NCBI GenBank assembly: GCA_028702395.1
Contig: JAQVOV010000001.1
Coordinates: 3,990 to 67,989, forward strand
DNA: 64,000 nt
Reading direction: 5' to 3'
From: Candidatus Omnitrophota bacterium
Lineage (GTDB): Bacteria; Omnitrophota; Gorgyraeia; JABMRN01
The first letter of the stretch is position 1. Each line of letters opens with the position of its first letter. Under the pieces are notes generated by a model. That model had not been told where the DNA came from. It ran no database searches and worked only from the letters and a program-made list of their open reading frames with translations. Of this stretch, positions 1,190 to 63,750 are shown in pieces. The position numbers were made by a program, and so were the translations under genes.

Positions 1190-1386
1190 TAGGAGTTCGA
1201 AACCAGAAAACAGAAGCCAGAAGCCAGAAGCCAGAAGCCAGAGAACTCTTAATACGTTTTTATCTTTAAATCAATTAATACTGGTCACTGGTCACTGGTC
1301 ACTGGTCACTGGTCACTGGTCACTGGTCACTGGTCACTGGTCACTGGTCACTGGTCACTGGTCACTAAACGATATAAGGGAGTGAA

Positions 1387-2103
1387 ATGAAAGAATACAG
1401 TATATCATTCGTGCTGCCTATGTATAACGAAGTTGCAGGCATAGCCGACACAATAGAAGAAGTCAGGATCATAGCAAAAGCATTAACAGATAATTATGAG
1501 ATAATTATTTCTGATGATGCCAGCACAGATGGTTCTTATTCAAAAGCAATGGAATATGCAAAAAAAGATGCTAATATAAAAGTGATAAAAGTTCCCAAAA
1601 ACACAAAATTCGGAGGAGCTTTAGCCAATGGATTGATAAATGCGCAAAAGGAGATCATTATTTATACAGATTCGGATCTTCCTATAAGTCTATTGGATAT
1701 AAAAAGATCTCTGCCTATGATAGAAGGTGCAGATATTGTTTCTGCTGCAAGCATTGTTCATAAAGGAGAAACGATGAAAAGGAAGATAATTTCATTTGGA
1801 TACAATGCTCTTTTAAGGATGTTTTTCGGTATGAAATTAAAAGATGTAAATTCAGGGTATAAAATTTTCAGAAAAACTGCAATTGAAGGGATGAGCTTTT
1901 TATCAAAGAGTCCTTTTATTGATGCTGAGATCTTTGTAAAAGTTTTAAGAAATGGCGGAAAGATAGTACAATACCCAATCGTGTTCAGGAACAGACGAGC
2001 AGGGGAATCAAGTATCGCCAGAATGCCTATTATAATACAAACATATTTGGATATGATGAAGTTCAGAGTTTGGTTGACTGGTAAGCCGGTAAAAAAGAGT
2101 TAA
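1387..2103 (+). CDS. Family-2 glycosyltransferase (dolichol/undecaprenyl-phosphate sugar synthase, ArnC/DPM1-like)
   Basis: N-terminus has SFVLPMYNE...IISDDASTDGS and DSDL motifs typical of GT2 polyprenyl-phosphate glycosyltransferases. SD-like GGGAG lies 8 nt upstream. Confidence 0.75.
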   Translation: MKEYSISFVLPMYNEVAGIADTIEEVRIIAKALTDNYEIIISDDASTDGSYSKAMEYAKKDANIKVIKVPKNTKFGGALANGLINAQKEIIIYTDSDLPISLLDIKRSLPMIEGADIVSAASIVHKGETMKRKIISFGYNALLRMFFGMKLKDVNSGYKIFRKTAIEGMSFLSKSPFIDAEIFVKVLRNGGKIVQYPIVFRNRRAGESSIARMPIIIQTYLDMMKFRVWLTGKPVKKS

Positions 2104-2230
2104 TATTCGGTTAGTGATTAGTGACTAGTGATTAGTAATTAGAATAAATTGATCTTAAGATAAAAATCCTATAGACTTTTCTAGTCACTTATCACTAGTC
2201 ACTAGTTACTATATCTTATAAAGGGAGAAA

Positions 2231-3046
2231 ATGAATAAATATCTGATAATAAACGCTGATGATTACGGGTTTTCAGAAAAAACAAATCAGGGTATTATTG
2301 AAGCTTATACAAAAGGGGTTGTGTCTGATCTAAGCATTATGGCTGTTGGGGTTGCTTTTGAAGACGGTATCACTAGGCTAAAAGAAAACAGTATTACAAC
2401 AGCTGGGATACATGTTTGTCTTACGTCTGATGATCTAAAGCCTTTTAGGATGGAATATTTTCCAAAGAACTGTTTTCATCTGTTTCGAGATATTGTTTCA
2501 GGGAAGATCAAAAAGCAGAAAATATATGCCGAGATCAAGGCTCAAGTTAAAAAAGCAAAAGAGCAAGGACTGAGCATTTCTCACATGGATTCCCATGAAC
2601 ATGTTCATATGTTCTTCCCTATTACGGATATTTTTATAAAAATAGCAGAGGAAGAGAATATTCCTTATATAAGATATCCCAATGAAAAGATAAGGGCTGC
2701 ATTCATAAAAGAACCGGTAAATTTTATTAGAAGTTTTATACTGAAAACTATGTGTCTTTTTTCAAAAAAGAAAATAAAAAGAAGGATATCAGGGGAATTT
2801 TTTGGGCATTTTCATTCGGGAAGATTGACAAAAAAAGATGTACAAAGGTTTTTAAAAGAAACAGAAAAAGGAGCGAGTGAAATAGGATGTCACCCGGGAT
2901 CTGAAGATAAAGATCCACAACAAAGAGACCAATGGCGCAAAAACGGCCAAAACGAGCTGAATATCTTCACGGACAAAGAAGTTATTGAACAAATAAAGAC
3001 CCTTCATATAAAAACAATTTCCTTTAAAGACTTGGGAACATTGTAA
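2231..3046 (+). CDS. YdjC/ChbG-family carbohydrate deacetylase
   Basis: N-terminal LIINADDYGFS motif and His-rich motifs (HMDSHEHVH) characteristic of YdjC-like deacetylases. Confidence 0.7.
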   Translation: MNKYLIINADDYGFSEKTNQGIIEAYTKGVVSDLSIMAVGVAFEDGITRLKENSITTAGIHVCLTSDDLKPFRMEYFPKNCFHLFRDIVSGKIKKQKIYAEIKAQVKKAKEQGLSISHMDSHEHVHMFFPITDIFIKIAEEENIPYIRYPNEKIRAAFIKEPVNFIRSFILKTMCLFSKKKIKRRISGEFFGHFHSGRLTKKDVQRFLKETEKGASEIGCHPGSEDKDPQQRDQWRKNGQNELNIFTDKEVIEQIKTLHIKTISFKDLGTL

Positions 3047-3092
3047 AATACAATTATTGGACATACTCCTTTGTTTATGATAAAATCAAGTC

Positions 3093-3557
3093 ATGACAAA
3101 CAAAAAAGAAGATAATCTTATAGTTACTAACAGAAAAGCTCGAAGGGATTATATAATAACAGAGACCTTTGAAGCGGGAATAATGCTCACAGGTACGGAA
3201 ATAAAATCCTTAAGAGCTAAAAAAGCCAGCCTAAGTGATAGCTTTGCAAGAGTTGTCAAAGGAGAGATCTTTTTGTATAACTTCCATATAGGGGCATATG
3301 AATTTGGTAATATTCATAATGTAGATCCTCTAAGAGAACGAAAACTGCTTTTACACAAAAAACAGATCCAGAAAATATTCGAAAAAAATCAAACCAAAGG
3401 TATGGCAATTGTTCCTTTGAAAGTATATCTTAAAAGAGGACTTGCGAAAGTTGAAATAGCTCTTGGCCAGGGAAAAAAGTTATACGATAAAAGAGAAACC
3501 ATAAAAAAACGACAGGCTAAAAGGGAAATAGACAGAGAAATGCGTAATAAAAAGTAG
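3093..3557 (+). CDS. smpB: SsrA-binding protein SmpB
   Basis: Full-length similarity pattern to SmpB (TNRKARRDYIITETFEAGIMLTGTEIKSLR...). Basic C-terminal tail. A tmRNA is found elsewhere in the window. Confidence 0.9.
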   Translation: MTNKKEDNLIVTNRKARRDYIITETFEAGIMLTGTEIKSLRAKKASLSDSFARVVKGEIFLYNFHIGAYEFGNIHNVDPLRERKLLLHKKQIQKIFEKNQTKGMAIVPLKVYLKRGLAKVEIALGQGKKLYDKRETIKKRQAKREIDREMRNKK

Positions 3558-62022: not shown

Positions 62023-62864
62023 TCAGAAAAATAAATGTCAATGATATCTCTAATGCAATAGCGAAAATGTGTATTGAGGCTAATATTGTTATTCGTAATG
62101 ATATTAAGAGAGCTCTTAAAAAAGCATTTCATTCAGAAAAAAATAAAAGAGCTAAGAACATCTTAAAGATCTTGCTTGAGAATGCTGATATAGCTGAAAA
62201 AGATAAGCTTGCTATATGTCAGGATACAGGACTTTGTGTTGTGCATATTGAGGTAGGACAAGACGTACATCTGATAGGCGGAACTCTTAAAGATGCAGTA
62301 AATAAAGGTGTTGAAAAAGGATATACAAAAGGTTATTTTAGAAGCTCAGTTGTTAATGATCCTGTTTCACGAAAAACAAAAGCAAAAACATATCCTGCAA
62401 TGCTTACAACGGAAATTGTTGCAGGTAGTAAGGTTAAAATAACAGTTTTTCCAAAAGGTTTTGGAAGCGAAAATAAAAGCAGGATATATATGCTTAATCC
62501 TACGGATGGGGAGGACAAGATAATAGAAGCAGTTGTTAAAACTGTTAAAGAAGCAGGTCCAAATGCATGTCCTCCTTTTGTAGTAGGGGTAGGTATAGGC
62601 GGTACTTTTGATAAAGCGGCTTTGATAGCCAAGAAAGCAATGTTCAGGGATATTATAAAACCAAATAAAGATAAAGGTATAAGATCACTTGAAGCTAGAC
62701 TTCTAAAAGAGATCAATGATCTTAATATAGGGCCTATGGGTCTTGGCGGTAAAAACACTTGTTTAGGGGTAAATGTGGAAACTTATCCTACGCATATTGC
62801 AGGATTACCGGTTGCAGTCAATATCAATTGTCATGCGACCAGGTCGTGCACGAGACTGATATAG
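62019..62864 (+). CDS. Class I fumarate hydratase / L(+)-tartrate dehydratase alpha subunit (Fe-S hydro-lyase alpha)
   Basis: CQDTGLCVV and [11 protein letters not shown] motifs of the alpha subunit. Confidence 0.8.
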
Positions 62865-63140
62865 GCTAACATGGCCTTACAGATAAAAGATAAAAGACAA
62901 AAGATAAAAGGGTGGAAGGTTCTGGATTGAGCCACGTGCTACGCGCCACGAGCTGCGAGCTTGTGGAACAGTCTAAATCGAGGTTTTAAATAAGATTCTA
63001 CAATGACAACAGATTTTTTATCCGCCAAAATTTTGTAAAATTTTGGCGAGATCACGCCACCATCAAAGATGGTGAGGCGGACTTTTTACCTGCCTGCCGG
63101 CAGGCAGGCTTTTACCTTTTTACTTAGAACGGAGTAACAG

Positions 63141-63659
63141 TTGAAAAAGTTAACAGGAACAATAGATCAAAAAACTCGGAAGACTTTAAAAGCAGGAGAA
63201 GAGCTTCTTTATACGGGGATTGTTTATACTGCAAGAGATCAAGCTCATAAAAGATTGAGTGAAACAATAGAAAAAAGGAAAAAATTGCCTTTTGATCTAA
63301 ATAATGCAATAATCTATTATACAGGACCTACTCCTTCAAAAGAAAAAAATAAAGTTGGTTCCTCTGGGCCTACGACAAGTTCAAGAATGGATAAATTCAC
63401 GCCACTGCTTTTAAATAAAGGGGTTGGTTCTTTGATCGGCAAAGGTAGTCGGTCAAAAGAAGTTGTAAATGCTATAAAAAAAAACAAAGCAGTTTATTTT
63501 ATAACGATCGCAGGTGCGGGCGCATATCTTAGCAAGAGAATAAAAAGTGCAGAAATTGTGGCATATTCTGAGTTGGGAGCAGAAGCTATAAGGCTTCTGT
63601 ATGTAGAGGATTTTCCGTTGATCGTTGCAGTTGATAGTCATGGCAACAGCATATATTAA
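63141..63659 (+). CDS. Class I fumarate hydratase beta subunit (C-terminal catalytic domain), TTG start
   Basis: YYTGPTP...GKGSRS motif region. SD ACGGAG upstream of TTG. Confidence 0.7.
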   Translation: MKKLTGTIDQKTRKTLKAGEELLYTGIVYTARDQAHKRLSETIEKRKKLPFDLNNAIIYYTGPTPSKEKNKVGSSGPTTSSRMDKFTPLLLNKGVGSLIGKGSRSKEVVNAIKKNKAVYFITIAGAGAYLSKRIKSAEIVAYSELGAEAIRLLYVEDFPLIVAVDSHGNSIY

Positions 63660-63700
63660 GGGTAGGGGCCATTGCCCTCAATGGCCCTTTACAAAGAAAC
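63660..63700. repeat. Palindromic REP-like module variant (GGTAGGGGCCATTGCCCTCAATGGCCCTTTAC)
   Basis: Inverted repeat ggggccattgccc/gggcaatggcccc-like. Related to 36125..36160 (cgtaggggccatcgccctcgatggccc). Confidence 0.7.
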
Positions 63701-63750
63701 AAATGTAGGGTTGAGGCCTGCCTCAACCTTTAAAGATTAGGAAAGGGAAC

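What the first reader, a model, noticed from the sequence alone, without database searches (positions are those of the whole stretch)
1190..63720. Pervasive modular GC-rich REP/BIME-like mosaic repeats in an AT-rich genome
Nearly every intergenic region contains combinations of a small set of modules.
- Palindrome (P): a 30-bp perfect palindrome TGTAGGGGCGTATTGCAATACGCCCCTACA and nested variants carrying GCCCGCCTGCCGGACGGGC or GGCCATCGCCCTCGATGGCC cores. Copies at 16859, 20044, 21575, 21850, 34145, 36125, 36335, 38690, 61057, 63660.
- GC arms (G): AGCCACGAGCTGCGCGCTGCGCGCAACGCG and its reverse complement.
- K-module: AAAGATAAAAGGGTGGAA(C/G)GTCCTGA and GTAAAAAGGAAAAAGTGTGGAAGGTCC.
- Tail module: an ~110-bp 'CCACAATGAAAACAGATTTTTTATCCGCCAAAATTTTGCAAAATTTTGGCGG...CGCCACTAAAAAAAAGTGGCG...TTTTGCCTTTTTAC' module at 14760, 20090, 34190, 61100, 63000.
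- CTGCCGGCAGG-type short palindromes.

Modules are shuffled between loci like E. coli BIMEs or Neisseria Correia elements, but the sequences are unrelated to those. Their density is unusual: tens of copies in 64 kb. They even lie between normally tightly coupled genes (xseA|xseB, gcvT|gcvH).

The modules might serve as transcription terminators or mRNA stabilisers, as targets or templates for a REP-associated transposase (RAYT), or as IS110 targets (see the IS finding).
Basis: seen in the sequence. Interest (0 to 1): 0.7.

Follow-up and report, generated by a model that had tools for sequence, protein, structure and literature searches.

The report
Nested REP palindromes and heptamer repeats
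The gaps between genes in this Omnitrophota genome are packed with small nested repeats, namely hairpin "REP" palindromes copied by a known type of transposase plus runs of 7-base repeats, which is a clear new example of known kinds of bacterial junk or semi-domesticated DNA and not a new system.

Summary
About two-thirds of spacers (25/38) carry the modules, against 11 % of coding controls, and 42 % of intergenic bases are repeated within the window. They usually occur as inverted pairs bracketing a spacer, around a few short cores.

The GC-rich palindromes are GTAG-tagged REPs. The main one (28 nt) is a "double-foot" REP of the RAYT/TnpA_REP subclass 2.4 system. The identical 28-mer occurs in at least 112 loci from about 17 phyla, with unrelated flanks, and lies inside or beside RAYT genes there, including in another Omnitrophota MAG. 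That embedding is already published (Quentin 2018).

Several results show turnover:
- empty and filled paralogous sites
- a relative lacking some modules
- a truncated GIY-YIG gene
- a 275-bp duplication
- an IS110 inserted exactly at a REP's GTAG

No RAYT lies in the window, and no RNA-level signal was found.

Verdict: a new member of known kinds (REP/RAYT plus STRR-like heptamers) in a new phylum. Regulatory roles are untested.

The parts
34145..34174 (.). Exact copy of palindrome P. The core is the 28-mer GTAGGGGCGTATTGCAATACGCCCCTAC, a double-foot GTAG REP.
20045..20072 (.). P copy with 1 mismatch, in the dxs|gltX spacer. It is inserted after the 23-nt K-core leader.
21579..21606 (.). P copy in the first unit of the 275-bp tandem duplication.
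21854..21881 (.). P copy in the second unit of the 275-bp tandem duplication.
61057..61084 (.). P copy.
16859..16907 (.). P with a 21-nt inner palindrome (CCCGCCTGCCGGACGGGCAGG, 16873-16893) inserted at its centre.
9390..9413 (.). Second double-foot REP family: GTAGGGGCAATGAATTGCCCCTAC.
24231..24259 (-). Single-foot GTAG REP: GTAGGGGCGGTCGTCCCGACCGCCC.
36131..36156 (+). Single-foot GTAG REP GTAGGGGCCATCGCCCTCGATGGCCC, placed after a K-core leader.
36329..36375 (+). GTAG REP GGGCAGACC...GGTCTGCCC carrying the same 21-nt inner palindrome. This is the intact twin of the IS110 target.
37395..38682 (+). IS110-family element (ORF 37463-38533) inserted in a REP. The AG core dinucleotide is at 37393-37394 and 38683-38684. 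The rest of the REP is at 38685-38727.
63662..63728 (+). Two further single-foot GTAG REPs (GGGCCATTG... and GGTTGAGGC...).
16795..16987 (+). xseA|xseB spacer. Order: GC-rich heptamer array, K core, nested P, AT-core-like ATTGATCT, reverse-complement GC array, SD. Fold z = -7.7.
19970..20212 (+). dxs|gltX spacer. Order: A-rich heptamers, K core, P, tail0, two tail hairpins (20112-20138 and 20145-20165), T-rich heptamers. Fold z = -7.3.
21499..22045 (+). 275-bp tandem duplication (2.0 copies, 97 %). Each unit holds a K-module, P, a reverse GC arm and the C-terminal remnant of a GIY-YIG gene.
34091..34252 (+). Spacer with A-rich heptamers, K core, P, short tail0 and T-rich heptamers.
14695..14808 (+). 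The same scaffold with an empty P site: ...GGTTTTT|AATAAGATTCCACAATGA.
60934..61227 (+). Composite spacer: A-rich heptamers, K core, GC heptamers, second K core, P, full tail with two hairpins, T-rich heptamers. Fold z = -9.3.
62865..63140 (+). Composite spacer like 60934 but with an empty P site. It also holds the CCTGCCTGCCGGCAGGCAGG palindrome at 63089-63108.
2104..2230 (+). Inverted heptamer arrays TTAGTGA / CTAGTCA around the AT core AATAAATTGATCTTAAGATAAA (+).
31175..31311 (+). Same class as 2104, located after gcvH.
35033..35206 (+). Same class as 2104: GTGACTA / TAGTCAC arrays with the AT core (+).
30692..30790 (+). gcvT|gcvH spacer with inverted GTTATCTGT / ACAGATAAC arrays. Fold z = -9.6.
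6466..6651 (+). GAGACCA / TTCTGGT inverted arrays with the AT core (+), directly after the 6S RNA terminator.
47371..47614 (+). GAGACCA / CTGGTTT inverted arrays with the AT core (+).
1190..1386 (+). GAAGCCA x6, AT core in the opposite orientation, then ACTGGTC x12.4 (100 % identical units) ending 20 nt before the ATG. No strong hairpin.
36047..36756 (+). 710-nt mosaic. It holds a CTGCCGGCCGGCAG palindrome, 3 K cores, 3 GTAG REPs, GCATATC heptamers, a GC arm, GAAGCAA x5, the AT core (-) and CTAGTCA x15.6.
38685..39184 (+). Near-duplicate of 36329-36745: REP, GCATATC heptamers, GC arm, K core, AT core (-), CTAGTCA x18.6, reverse GC arm.
39870..40105 (+). Third copy of the GCATATC / GC arm / K core / AT core (-) / ACTGGTC x6 composite.
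5230..5360 (+). A-rich heptamers, CCTGCCTGCCGGCAGGCAGG palindrome (5251-5270), two K cores and GC heptamers.
9660..9844 (+). Inverted GTCATGA / TCATGAC-type arrays around the core CTGTGGAA.
24060..24400 (+). Mosaic of GCAAATTGC-type heptamers, GC arm, K-like core, REP (-), reverse GC arm, CTGTGGAA core (-) and TCATGAC arrays.
48170..48640 (+). Mosaic with the CTGTGGAA core, two GC arms, three K cores, a decayed REP (48455-48480) and GAGACCA heptamers.
56640..56829 (+). GC arm, K core, and inverted TTAGTGTGTG / CACACACTCAC arrays around an ATTGATTTTAA core.
59660..59805 (+). Inverted GC-rich heptamer arms.

Best explanation
The spacers of this Candidatus Omnitrophota genome are filled by nested families of small repeats. 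Their origin is at the DNA level (mobile or mutational). They are not one designed system.

(1) The GC-rich palindromes are GTAG-tagged REPs.
- The main one, P, is a discrete 28-nt 'double-foot' REP: GTAG + GGG-bottomed stem + CTAC. It belongs to the RAYT/TnpA_REP subclass 2.4 (Bertels group 4) system.
- The identical 28-mer, with unrelated flanks, sits in genomes of about 17 phyla. There it lies beside and, in frame, inside RAYT genes.
- It is most likely copied by a RAYT (an HUH/Y1 enzyme acting on hairpins in single-stranded DNA) encoded elsewhere in this genome. This step is inferred.
- In this lineage it lands preferentially at the end of a 23-nt leader (GGAAnGTCCTGA...GGTTTT, the 'K core') and in the loops of other hairpins. 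That produces the Russian-doll nesting.

(2) The 'GC arms', the A-rich part of the K-module and the T-rich end of the tail are tandem heptamer arrays (STRR/LSSR-like).
- They come as inverted pairs in about six sequence classes, so most spacers can fold into a long hairpin around a short core.
- Perfect 12-19-copy arrays point to growth by replication slippage (inferred).

(3) An IS110-family RNA-guided recombinase has used one REP as its target.

Any effects on expression are probable by-products and are not shown. Candidates are 3'-end hairpins, one terminator-like tail hairpin, and arrays abutting the SD.
For: Identity of P:
- It has the GTAG/CTAC feet and a GGG/CCC stem bottom, as defined for subclass 2.4 REPs.
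- The exact 28-mer is in at least 112 loci from many phyla, at host GC of 32-69 %.
- The unit ends exactly at the 28 nt in 89 of 123 copies.

RAYT link:
- P is inside or adjacent to RAYT ORFs in L082, L012, L058, L059, L070, L002 and L065, in two reading frames.
- Most of the top 120 homologues carry RGVLQYAPT or VGAYCNTPL at that spot. Others carry peptides of other GTAG palindromes.
- Omnitrophota locus L115 has a REP, then a RAYT with an exact P inside, then a decayed REP.
- The NH[IV]H, WQ and YIxNNP motifs are invariant. The only PDB hit is TnpA_REP 4ER8.
- REP-in-RAYT is published.

Turnover:
- Paralogous empty sites (14738, 62953) contrast with filled sites (20021, 34121, 61032).
- The same leader is followed by four different REP families.
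- Relative L114 (87 % Dxs identity) has a different REP and heptamers in xseA|xseB, no P or tail in dxs|gltX, and an intact GIY-YIG gene. In the window only residues 47-82 of that gene survive, in two copies.
- There is a 275-bp tandem duplication.
- The IS110 sits at GT[AG]GGGC.

Heptamers:
- Period 7 is uniquely enriched and 35 of 37 arrays are intergenic.
- Arms are complementary within spacers: score 30 against 16, p = 2e-6.
- Fold z-scores of -5 to -10 are similar on both strands.
- G.U = 25 against A.C = 22, which indicates DNA-level symmetry.

Dispersal:
- K-core and tail modules occur in unrelated gene contexts in L116 and L120.
Against: - No RAYT gene or remnant is in the 64 kb, and the rest of the genome could not be read. 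The mobilising enzyme for this genome is therefore inferred from other genomes.
- RAYT-driven REP transposition has, to my knowledge, never been shown in vivo for any system.
- The heptamer-array + K-core scaffold is kept at the orthologous xseA|xseB and dxs|gltX spacers of a relative although the sequences differ. That hints at some constraint.
- The K core (20 on +, 4 on -) and tail (5:0) are strongly oriented. This fits either transcription-linked function or strand-biased ssDNA insertion.
- Nothing explains mechanistically why the repeats are heptamers or why arrays are paired in inverted orientation.
Confidence: 0.65

Rival explanations
1. The elements are primarily selected RNA signals that punctuate operons. 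The long hairpins would act as terminators or attenuators, RNase III/RNase Y processing sites, or 3'-end stabilisers. Under this view the REPs are just one stem type.
For: - Elements sit between co-directional genes, start at the stop codon and end about 20 nt before the ATG.
- Many spacers fold far better than shuffles.
- The scaffold is conserved at orthologous spacers with different sequence.
- The K core and tail are co-oriented with transcription.
- The second tail hairpin is the best terminator-like site.
- The genome encodes RNase Y.
Against: - There is no excess of G.U over A.C in the arms (25 against 22), and folding is equally good on the non-coding strand.
- P has no T tract, and ordinary terminators exist elsewhere in the window.
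- Empty and filled sites, a truncated gene and a tandem duplication show insertional behaviour.
- One-third of spacers lack the modules.
- The AT core occurs in both orientations.
Confidence: 0.2
2. The array-core-array units are MITE-like elements moved by a conventional transposase, with the heptamer arrays serving as terminal inverted repeats. On this view RAYT plays no part.
For: - Inverted arms fall into a few classes with 2-5 members each.
- The cores are shared between copies.
- The modules are dispersed in other contigs of the lineage.
Against: - No target-site duplications were seen.
- No parent IS with such ends was found. The only IS in the window (IS110) has unrelated ends.
- Arm length and sequence vary continuously, as expected for slippage and not for fixed TIRs.
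- This view does not explain the GTAG REPs, which have a demonstrated RAYT association.
Confidence: 0.1
3. The units are hypervariable switches. Either heptamer copy number upstream of start codons sets expression (contingency loci), or the AT core is an invertible promoter flanked by inverted arrays.
For: - Perfect arrays of 12-19 units end just upstream of the SD/ATG, like the TAACTGA repeats of Beggiatoaceae.
- The AT core occurs 5 times on + and 4 times on - between arrays.
- The core contains TTGATY...TATAGA.
Against: - The promoter scan shows no enrichment, and the core fails the consensus filter.
- Copies with the core in reverse have non-complementary left arrays, so they are not simple inversions.
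- No invertase is in the window.
- No population data are available.
- The affected genes are housekeeping genes.
Confidence: 0.07
4. The pattern is an assembly or binning artefact (collapsed or chimeric repeats).
For: The window comes from a MAG, and short-read contigs break at these repeats.
Against: - An independent assembly is 100 % identical over 3150 nt, including partial repeats.
- Related contigs from three other samples show the same modules in syntenic and non-syntenic contexts.
- ORFs are intact on both sides of the elements.
Confidence: 0.02

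Closest known systems
'Double-foot' long REPs of TnpA_REP/RAYT subclass 2.4 (Quentin et al. 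2018, PMC6006769; Bertels group 4)
   Same: - 5' GTAG and 3' CTAC feet, with three G-C pairs at the stem bottom.
- Several REP families in one genome.
[quoted passage not shown]
- Scattered over many phyla.
   Different: - Host phylum. Omnitrophota is not mentioned in the parts of the papers I read.
- Here the REPs are nested into heptamer-array scaffolds and land after a lineage-specific 23-nt leader.
- The exact identity of one 28-mer across about 17 phyla is not stated in the parts of the papers I read.
GTAG-tagged REP superfamily (Di Nocera et al. 2013, PMC3733652)
   Same: - GTAG tag and a GC-rich 6-13 bp stem.
- Mostly between co-directional ORFs.
- Some families are inserted within other small palindromes.
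- Present in Cyanobacteria and Planctomycetes.
- Occasional intragenic copies.
   Different: - In classic families the GTAG is unpaired and units form HH or TT dimers. Here P is a full palindrome and occurs as singletons.
- I could not see Figure 1 of the paper, so I could not assign a family number.
E. coli BIMEs (mosaics of REPs with fixed linker motifs; established knowledge)
   Same: A mosaic of a small set of motifs in spacers, GTAG REPs, use as IS targets, and an associated RAYT homologue (4ER8).
   Different: There are no alternating Y/Z REP pairs with fixed linkers. The mosaic here is built on heptamer arrays, and the stems have no sequence similarity.
Cyanobacterial STRR heptamer repeats and 'small dispersed repeats' (Mazel 1990 and Elhai 2008, from memory; the Elhai paper is cited but could not be read)
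   Same: - Tandem heptanucleotides in spacers.
- 21-28-nt palindromic units found nested in one another and in other repeats.
- The same P 28-mer is present in Nostocales and Stigonema genomes that also have many heptamer arrays.
   Different: - A different phylum and different heptamer units. CTGGTCA is one base away from STRR2 TTGGTCA as I recall it.
- Systematic inverted pairing of arrays is not something I can document for cyanobacteria.
TAACTGA intergenic heptamer repeats of Beggiatoaceae, Cyanobacteria and Bacteroidetes (MacGregor 2015, PMC4679880)
   Same: Direct heptamer arrays that end a few nucleotides upstream of start codons of unrelated, often housekeeping genes. Distribution is patchy across phyla and the function is unknown.
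   Different: - The units differ (CTAGTCA, CTGGTCA, GTAAAAA, GCTGCGC ...), and no TAACTGA array appears in the list.
- Here there are many unit types and an inverted partner array.
IS110-family elements that insert into REPs (Tobes and Pareja 2006, listed; IS621 bridge-RNA recombinase, from memory)
   Same: An IS110-family RNA-guided transposase (NF033542 above its cut-off) is inserted at a fixed point of a REP, with a shared core dinucleotide at both junctions.
   Different: The target is a subclass-2.4-type REP in Omnitrophota. The bridge RNA and its guide loops were not analysed here.

Membership tests
Double-foot long REP of RAYT subclass 2.4 | 5' GT[AG]G tetranucleotide at the foot of the hairpin | tested here: met
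   All 12 hairpin sites begin with GTAG.
Double-foot long REP of RAYT subclass 2.4 | Reverse complement C[TC]AC at the 3' end (double foot) | tested here: met
   P and the 9390 family end in CTAC. The REPs at 24231, 36131, 36329, 63662 and 63705 are single-foot 'canonical long' types.
Double-foot long REP of RAYT subclass 2.4 | Stem bottom made of three consecutive G-C pairs | tested here: met
   GTAG-GGG...CCC-CTAC in P and in most variants.
Double-foot long REP of RAYT subclass 2.4 | Physical association with a tnpA_REP gene, flanking it and/or inserted in frame between HuH and Y | tested here: met
   Met in other genomes: L082, L012, L059, L070, L002, L065 and L115. For the window's own genome this cannot be tested. 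No RAYT lies in the 64 kb.
Double-foot long REP of RAYT subclass 2.4 | Cleavage or mobilisation by the cognate RAYT | not testable with these tools
   This needs biochemistry or population data. Empty and filled paralogous sites are indirect support only.
TnpA_REP subclass 2.4 (the associated protein) | Motifs NH[IFV]H, WQ and YIxNNP | tested here: met
   N83 H84 H86, W138 Q139 and Y159 I160 N163 P164 are invariant in alignment A2. The motifs come from Table 1 of PMC6006769.
TnpA_REP subclass 2.4 (the associated protein) | Passes the curated RAYT model (NF047646) | tested here: inconclusive
   Best family hit but below the cut-off: 69.8 and 64.6 bits against 80. Pfam Y1_Tnp scores 20.6 against 23. 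A profile search finds only 4ER8 TnpA_REP, E = 1.3e-5. The embedded REP splits the domain.
REPIN (inverted REP doublet) | Two REPs in inverted orientation separated by a short spacer, forming one long hairpin | tested here: not met
   P copies are singletons. The only close pair (21579 and 21854) is a direct 275-bp duplication.
E. coli-type BIME | Alternating REP orientations with fixed linker motifs | tested here: not met
   The spacer layouts show arrays, cores and single REPs, with no alternating REP pairs.
STRR / long simple-sequence heptamer repeats | Tandem heptanucleotide arrays concentrated in non-coding DNA | tested here: met
   37 period-7 arrays, 35 of them intergenic. Periods 6 and 8 give 8 and 2 arrays.
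STRR / long simple-sequence heptamer repeats | Classical STRR unit sequences and a heterocystous cyanobacterial host | tested here: not met
   The host is Omnitrophota and the units differ. The classical units are recalled from memory.
TAACTGA repeats | The unit TAACTGA in direct arrays upstream of start codons | tested here: not met
   The position is similar, but no array has that unit.
MITE | Fixed terminal inverted repeats, target-site duplication and a related autonomous IS | tested here: inconclusive
   Inverted arms exist. No TSD or parent IS was seen in the window. The whole genome is not available.
IS110 family (the inserted IS) | DEDD N-terminal plus Transposase_20 domains, and passes the curated model | tested here: met
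   PF01548 and PF02371. NF033542 scores 147.5 against a cut-off of 140.

The most novel reading that the evidence does not exclude
The inverted heptamer arrays and their cores could be a genome-wide tuning layer. On this reading, the stem length at each operon junction and the distance or occlusion of the SD are set by slippage-prone heptamer copy number, and the AT core acts as a reversible promoter cassette. That would give an ultrasmall Omnitrophota bacterium stochastic, heritable variation in the expression of many housekeeping operons. A second, less exotic reading is also open. The 28-nt REP may travel between phyla inside the ORF of its own transposase gene, which would make RAYT subclass 2.4 a horizontally spreading REP system. 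That contrasts with the vertically inherited REPIN-RAYT pairs of Proteobacteria.
Probability: 0.1. Interest if true: 0.7.

Novelty: new member of a known kind. Interest (0 to 1): 0.38.

Why it matters
- **Extends known systems to a new phylum.** It places the REP/RAYT subclass 2.4 system and STRR-like heptamer arrays in Omnitrophota, a phylum of ultrasmall, mostly uncultured bacteria. It also shows how densely a compact 35 % GC genome can be colonised.
- **Gives a clean natural demonstration of unit size.** The mobile REP unit is exactly 28 nt: the flanks across phyla are unrelated, and paralogous sites occur both empty and filled. One REP sequence is conserved base for base across about 17 phyla, while its transposase diverges to 50-70 % identity. 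That points to horizontal spread and very strict substrate recognition.
- **Has practical consequences.**
  - These repeats break short-read assemblies.
  - They create spurious ORFs and peptides (RGVLQYAPT, VGAYCNTPL) in MAG annotations.
  - They offer natural targets for IS110 bridge-RNA recombinases.

Tried and rejected
- **Cyanobacterial origin.** I suspected this from the STRR-like heptamers. It is rejected: gene order, purine skew and Dxs homologues place the window in Omnitrophota.
- **RAYT in the window.** tblastn with 8 RAYTs down to E = 10 finds only the P-encoded decapeptide.
- **General link between P and heptamers.** The flanks of 240 P copies in other phyla are not significantly 7-periodic (p = 0.07). 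Three other Omnitrophota loci have no heptamer arrays. The two repeat types are therefore independent.
- **Other modules in the 112 cross-phylum loci.** None were found. They are lineage-specific.
- **Sigma-70 promoter reading of the AT core.** The scan was uninformative: 82 sites against 69 +/- 10 in shuffles, and the core was not called.
- **RNA-level selection.** G.U against A.C is 25 against 22.
- **Target-site consensus for P.** There is only a mild T preference at -1 to -3.
- **Rfam at gathering threshold.** It finds only tmRNA, 6S and tRNA.
- **Single-sequence PDB search.** It found nothing. A profile was needed.
- **Elhai 2008 SDR paper.** It is not held, and searching the literature for the palindrome or its peptides found nothing relevant.
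- **MAFFT alignment of empty against filled sites.** It misplaced the gap, so I read the junctions directly.
- **Metagenome scan for the K-module.** 11 of the 13 hits were chance matches in coding DNA.

Full report
**Context.** The window has 35 % GC, with positive GC and AT skew throughout and nearly all genes on the + strand. It encodes xseA, xseB, ispA, dxs, gltX, gcvT, gcvH, RNase Y, a large PAS histidine kinase, an IS110 transposase, 6S RNA, tmRNA and tRNA-Gln. The Dxs protein is identical to an NCBI protein of a 'Candidatus Omnitrophica bacterium' MAG, and its closest homologues are Omnitrophota.

The same holds for the GC arms, the K-module (12 copies) and the tail.
- A search for GTAG + stem + loop hairpins finds 12 sites (19 strand hits), against 0.8 in shuffles.
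- Of 38 spacers of at least 60 nt, 25 carry at least one module, against 33 of 300 coding chunks of matched length. 42 % of intergenic bases have a second copy in the window. 'Nearly every' spacer is therefore an overstatement, but the density is high.
- It is not an assembly artefact. An independent Logan contig is identical over 16878-20027 and breaks inside repeats at both ends. Contigs of relatives from other samples carry the same modules.

- The 'GC arms' read AGCCACG AGCTGCG CGCTGCG CGCAACG. The K-module begins AAGATAA AAGATAA, and the tail ends CTTTTTA CTTTTGC.
- There are also long perfect arrays: CTAGTCA x15.6 and x18.6, and ACTGGTC x12.4 and x6.
- Period 7 is uniquely enriched. There are 37 arrays covering 1248 nt, against 8 arrays for period 6, 2 for period 8 and none for periods 9-12. 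35 of the 37 are intergenic, although 80 % of the window is coding.
- In most spacers the array after the stop codon has a reverse-complement partner that ends about 20 nt before the next ATG.
- Left and right arms match within a spacer far better than between spacers (mean score 30 against 16, p = 2e-6). They fall into about six classes: TAGTGAC-type, A-rich GTAAAAA-type, GAGACCA-type, GC-rich GCTGCGC-type, GTTATCTGT and TTAGTGTGTG. A further GTCATGA class also exists.
- These spacers fold much better than dinucleotide shuffles (z = -5 to -10), and about equally well on either strand.
- Between the arms lie a few short cores:
  - the K core, GGAAnGTCCTGA: 20 on +, 4 on -
  - an AT core, AATTGATTTAAAGATAAA: 5 on +, 4 on -
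  - a CTGTGGAA core
  - tail0, CCACAATGAAAACAGATTTTTT: 5 on +, 0 on -

**Nesting.**
- P at 16859 carries a 21-nt palindrome (CCCGCCTGCCGGACGGGCAGG) at its centre. The same insert sits inside a different REP at 36329 and at 38685.
- The full tail equals the short tail plus a 57-nt pair of hairpins inserted between GATTTTTT and ACTTTT.
- The K-core leader is followed, 23 nt after GGAA, by P or by three other GTAG REP families in the window. In the relative L114 it is followed by a further, different one.
- At 14738 and 62953 the leader is followed by nothing. There the sequence runs straight from GGTTTT(T) into AAATAAGAYT-CCACAATGA.
- The leader therefore behaves as a landing site, and P behaves as a 28-nt insertion.

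**What P is.**
The groups include Cyanobacteria, Planctomycetota with anammox bacteria, Atribacterota, Chloroflexota, three CPR groups, Zixibacteria, Sumerlaeota, Nitrospirota, Ignavibacteria and other Bacteroidota, Calditrichota, Omnitrophota, Deinococcota, Desulfobacterota and Acidobacteriota.
- Host GC ranges from 32 to 69 % and the flanks are unrelated.
- In 89 of 123 copies the palindrome does not extend by even one base beyond the 28-mer. The flanks show only a mild T preference.
- In several loci P sits in the loop of another hairpin or in a MITE-like inverted repeat.
- In L082 it lies in an ORF reading MPNHVHGIIMINE-CRGVLQYAPT-KTQ. tblastn with that ORF shows RAYT-like genes overlapping or adjoining P in L012, L058, L059, L070, L002, L065 and L013.
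- P lies at the same place just after the HuH motif, in two different reading frames (CRGVLQYAPT or VGAYCNTPLQ). L065 has a decayed version.
- A database search gives at least 7581 homologues, many named 'REP element-mobilizing transposase RayT'. Most of the top 120 carry the P peptide at that spot. This count is biased, because the query contained the peptide. Others carry peptides of other GTAG palindromes such as VGATGRSPL or RGDRPVAPT.
- An Omnitrophota MAG (L115) has a near-P copy 100 nt upstream, an exact P inside the RAYT ORF and a decayed copy downstream.
- The family has invariant NH.H, WQ and YI..NP motifs. Its only match among solved structures is E. coli TnpA_REP, 4ER8. It is the best hit of the NCBI RAYT model but falls below the cut-off.

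**All of this is already described.**
- Di Nocera et al. 2013 defined the GTAG-tagged REP superfamily, including cyanobacterial and planctomycete families and REPs inserted in small palindromes.
- Quentin et al. 2018 defined TnpA_REP subclass 2.4 (Bertels group 4) by NH[IFV]H / WQ / YIxNNP. Its REPs are 'canonical long' (three G-C pairs at the stem bottom) and 'double foot' (GT[AG]G ... C[TC]AC). Its stated unique feature is in-frame REP insertions inside the tnpA_REP gene, and it is scattered over several phyla.
- P fits that description point by point.
- What I did not find stated in the parts I read is that one exact 28-mer is shared by so many phyla.

**Evidence for turnover.**
- A relative with 87 % identical Dxs (L114) has the same scaffold in the xseA|xseB spacer (heptamers, K-like core, GTAG REP). 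There the heptamers are A-rich instead of GC-rich, and the REP is a different one.
- Its dxs|gltX spacer keeps the A-rich array and core but lacks P and the tail.
- Downstream of gltX it has an intact 83-aa GIY-YIG gene. In the window only residues 47-82 of that gene remain, in two copies. Each copy is preceded by K-module + P + reverse GC arm, inside a 275-bp tandem duplication.
- The IS110 element (37395-38682) interrupts a REP exactly at GT[AG]|GGGC, with AG at both junctions. The intact twin is at 36329. Its transposase passes the curated 'IS110 family RNA-guided transposase' model.
- A metagenome scan for the K-module found two true hits, L116 and L120. They carry the K core, A-rich heptamers, a GGGGCAGACC palindrome and tail-like hairpins next to genes that are absent from the window. 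The lineage-specific modules are therefore dispersed and not local.

**Function.**
- The sigma-70 scan is uninformative. The second tail hairpin is the top terminator-like site, and P has no T tract.
- Arm mismatches are G.U-type 25 times and A.C-type 22 times, and both strands fold equally well. Nothing therefore indicates selection for RNA structure on the coding strand.
- The strong orientation bias of the K core and tail fits either transcription-linked function or strand-biased insertion of a single-strand transposition system. The two cannot be separated here, because transcription and the skew-defined strand coincide.
- Heptamer arrays just upstream of start codons have been described, without explanation, in Beggiatoaceae, Cyanobacteria and Bacteroidetes (TAACTGA repeats). 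Heptamers are the commonest long simple repeats in bacteria, which has been attributed to polymerase slippage.
- Heptamer arrays are also frequent in the cyanobacterial, Atribacterota and anammox loci that hold P. They are absent from three other Omnitrophota loci, and P flanks in general are not 7-periodic. The two repeat types therefore coexist without being mechanistically tied.

**Verdict.**
- The finding is a real and unusually dense mosaic. Its parts belong to known kinds: GTAG REPs of the RAYT subclass 2.4 system, STRR-like heptamer arrays, and an IS110 that targets a REP.
- New here are the host phylum, the systematic inverted pairing of heptamer arrays around short cores, the K-core landing site, and the documentation that one 28-nt REP is identical across about 17 phyla.
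- The mechanism for P (RAYT acting on single-stranded hairpins) is inferred from association and from established knowledge of TnpA_REP. The origin of the paired heptamer arrays remains unexplained.

Noticed in passing
window 9156-9383, 22383-22631, 42859-43065, 46648-46869 (+); probably also ~42130 and the - strand near 39185-39869; L120 101-320 (reverse-complement orientation as printed): A family of paralogous 68-82-aa ORFs. The N-terminus is conserved (MKKYI.PK...I.L...QA.L.VC..GGAYF) and the C-terminus is variable, contains Cys and ends in PS. There is no Pfam hit. One copy lies 800 nt upstream of a B12-binding radical SAM gene (43866-45434), so these may be RiPP precursor peptides. They account for repeat families D14 and D20. 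A member also occurs in the related metagenome contig L120.
   Followed up: partly
window 21667-21774 and 21951-22049; L114 4631-4882: The window holds a duplicated C-terminal remnant (residues 47-82) of a GIY-YIG protein gene. The gene is intact between gltX and tRNA-Gln in the relative.
   Followed up: yes
window 42041-42429: The tmRNA is well supported by Rfam (171 bits), but ARAGORN reads only a very short tag peptide (ALAY**). The tag reading frame may be mis-called or unusual.
   Followed up: no
window 6277-6672: 6S RNA is followed by a clean terminator hairpin (6437-6465). An array / AT core / array element then fills the whole gap to the next ATG. If that gene has its own promoter, it must lie inside the repeat element.
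   Followed up: partly
L115 3028-3252 (-): The other Omnitrophota MAG carries a second, partial RAYT-like fragment (37-43 % identity to residues ~22-109), about 4 kb from the intact RAYT.
   Followed up: no
L013 3333-3533; L094 7117; several other loci: P appears to lie inside non-RAYT ORFs in some genomes, where it adds CRGVLQYAPT or VGAYCNTPL to predicted proteins. This is a likely source of spurious or decorated proteins in MAG annotations.
   Followed up: no
L030, L049, L091, L096, L112 (cyanobacterial MAGs): In cyanobacteria P repeatedly sits at the centre of one ~90-nt inverted-repeat element (TAGACATCTCCRGAAATKAT[P]...AATTAATTATGCGT...). This looks like a MITE-like carrier specific to that phylum.
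   Followed up: no
window 36271-36745 versus 37333-37394 + 38685-39130: The GNAT acetyltransferase gene (36757-37314, - strand) is bracketed by direct copies of a ~450-nt composite repeat, one of them split by the IS110. The arrangement could promote deletion or duplication of that gene.
   Followed up: partly
window 12996-14597: The genome encodes RNase Y (N-terminal, KH and HD domains). It is a candidate enzyme for any processing at the spacer hairpins.
   Followed up: no
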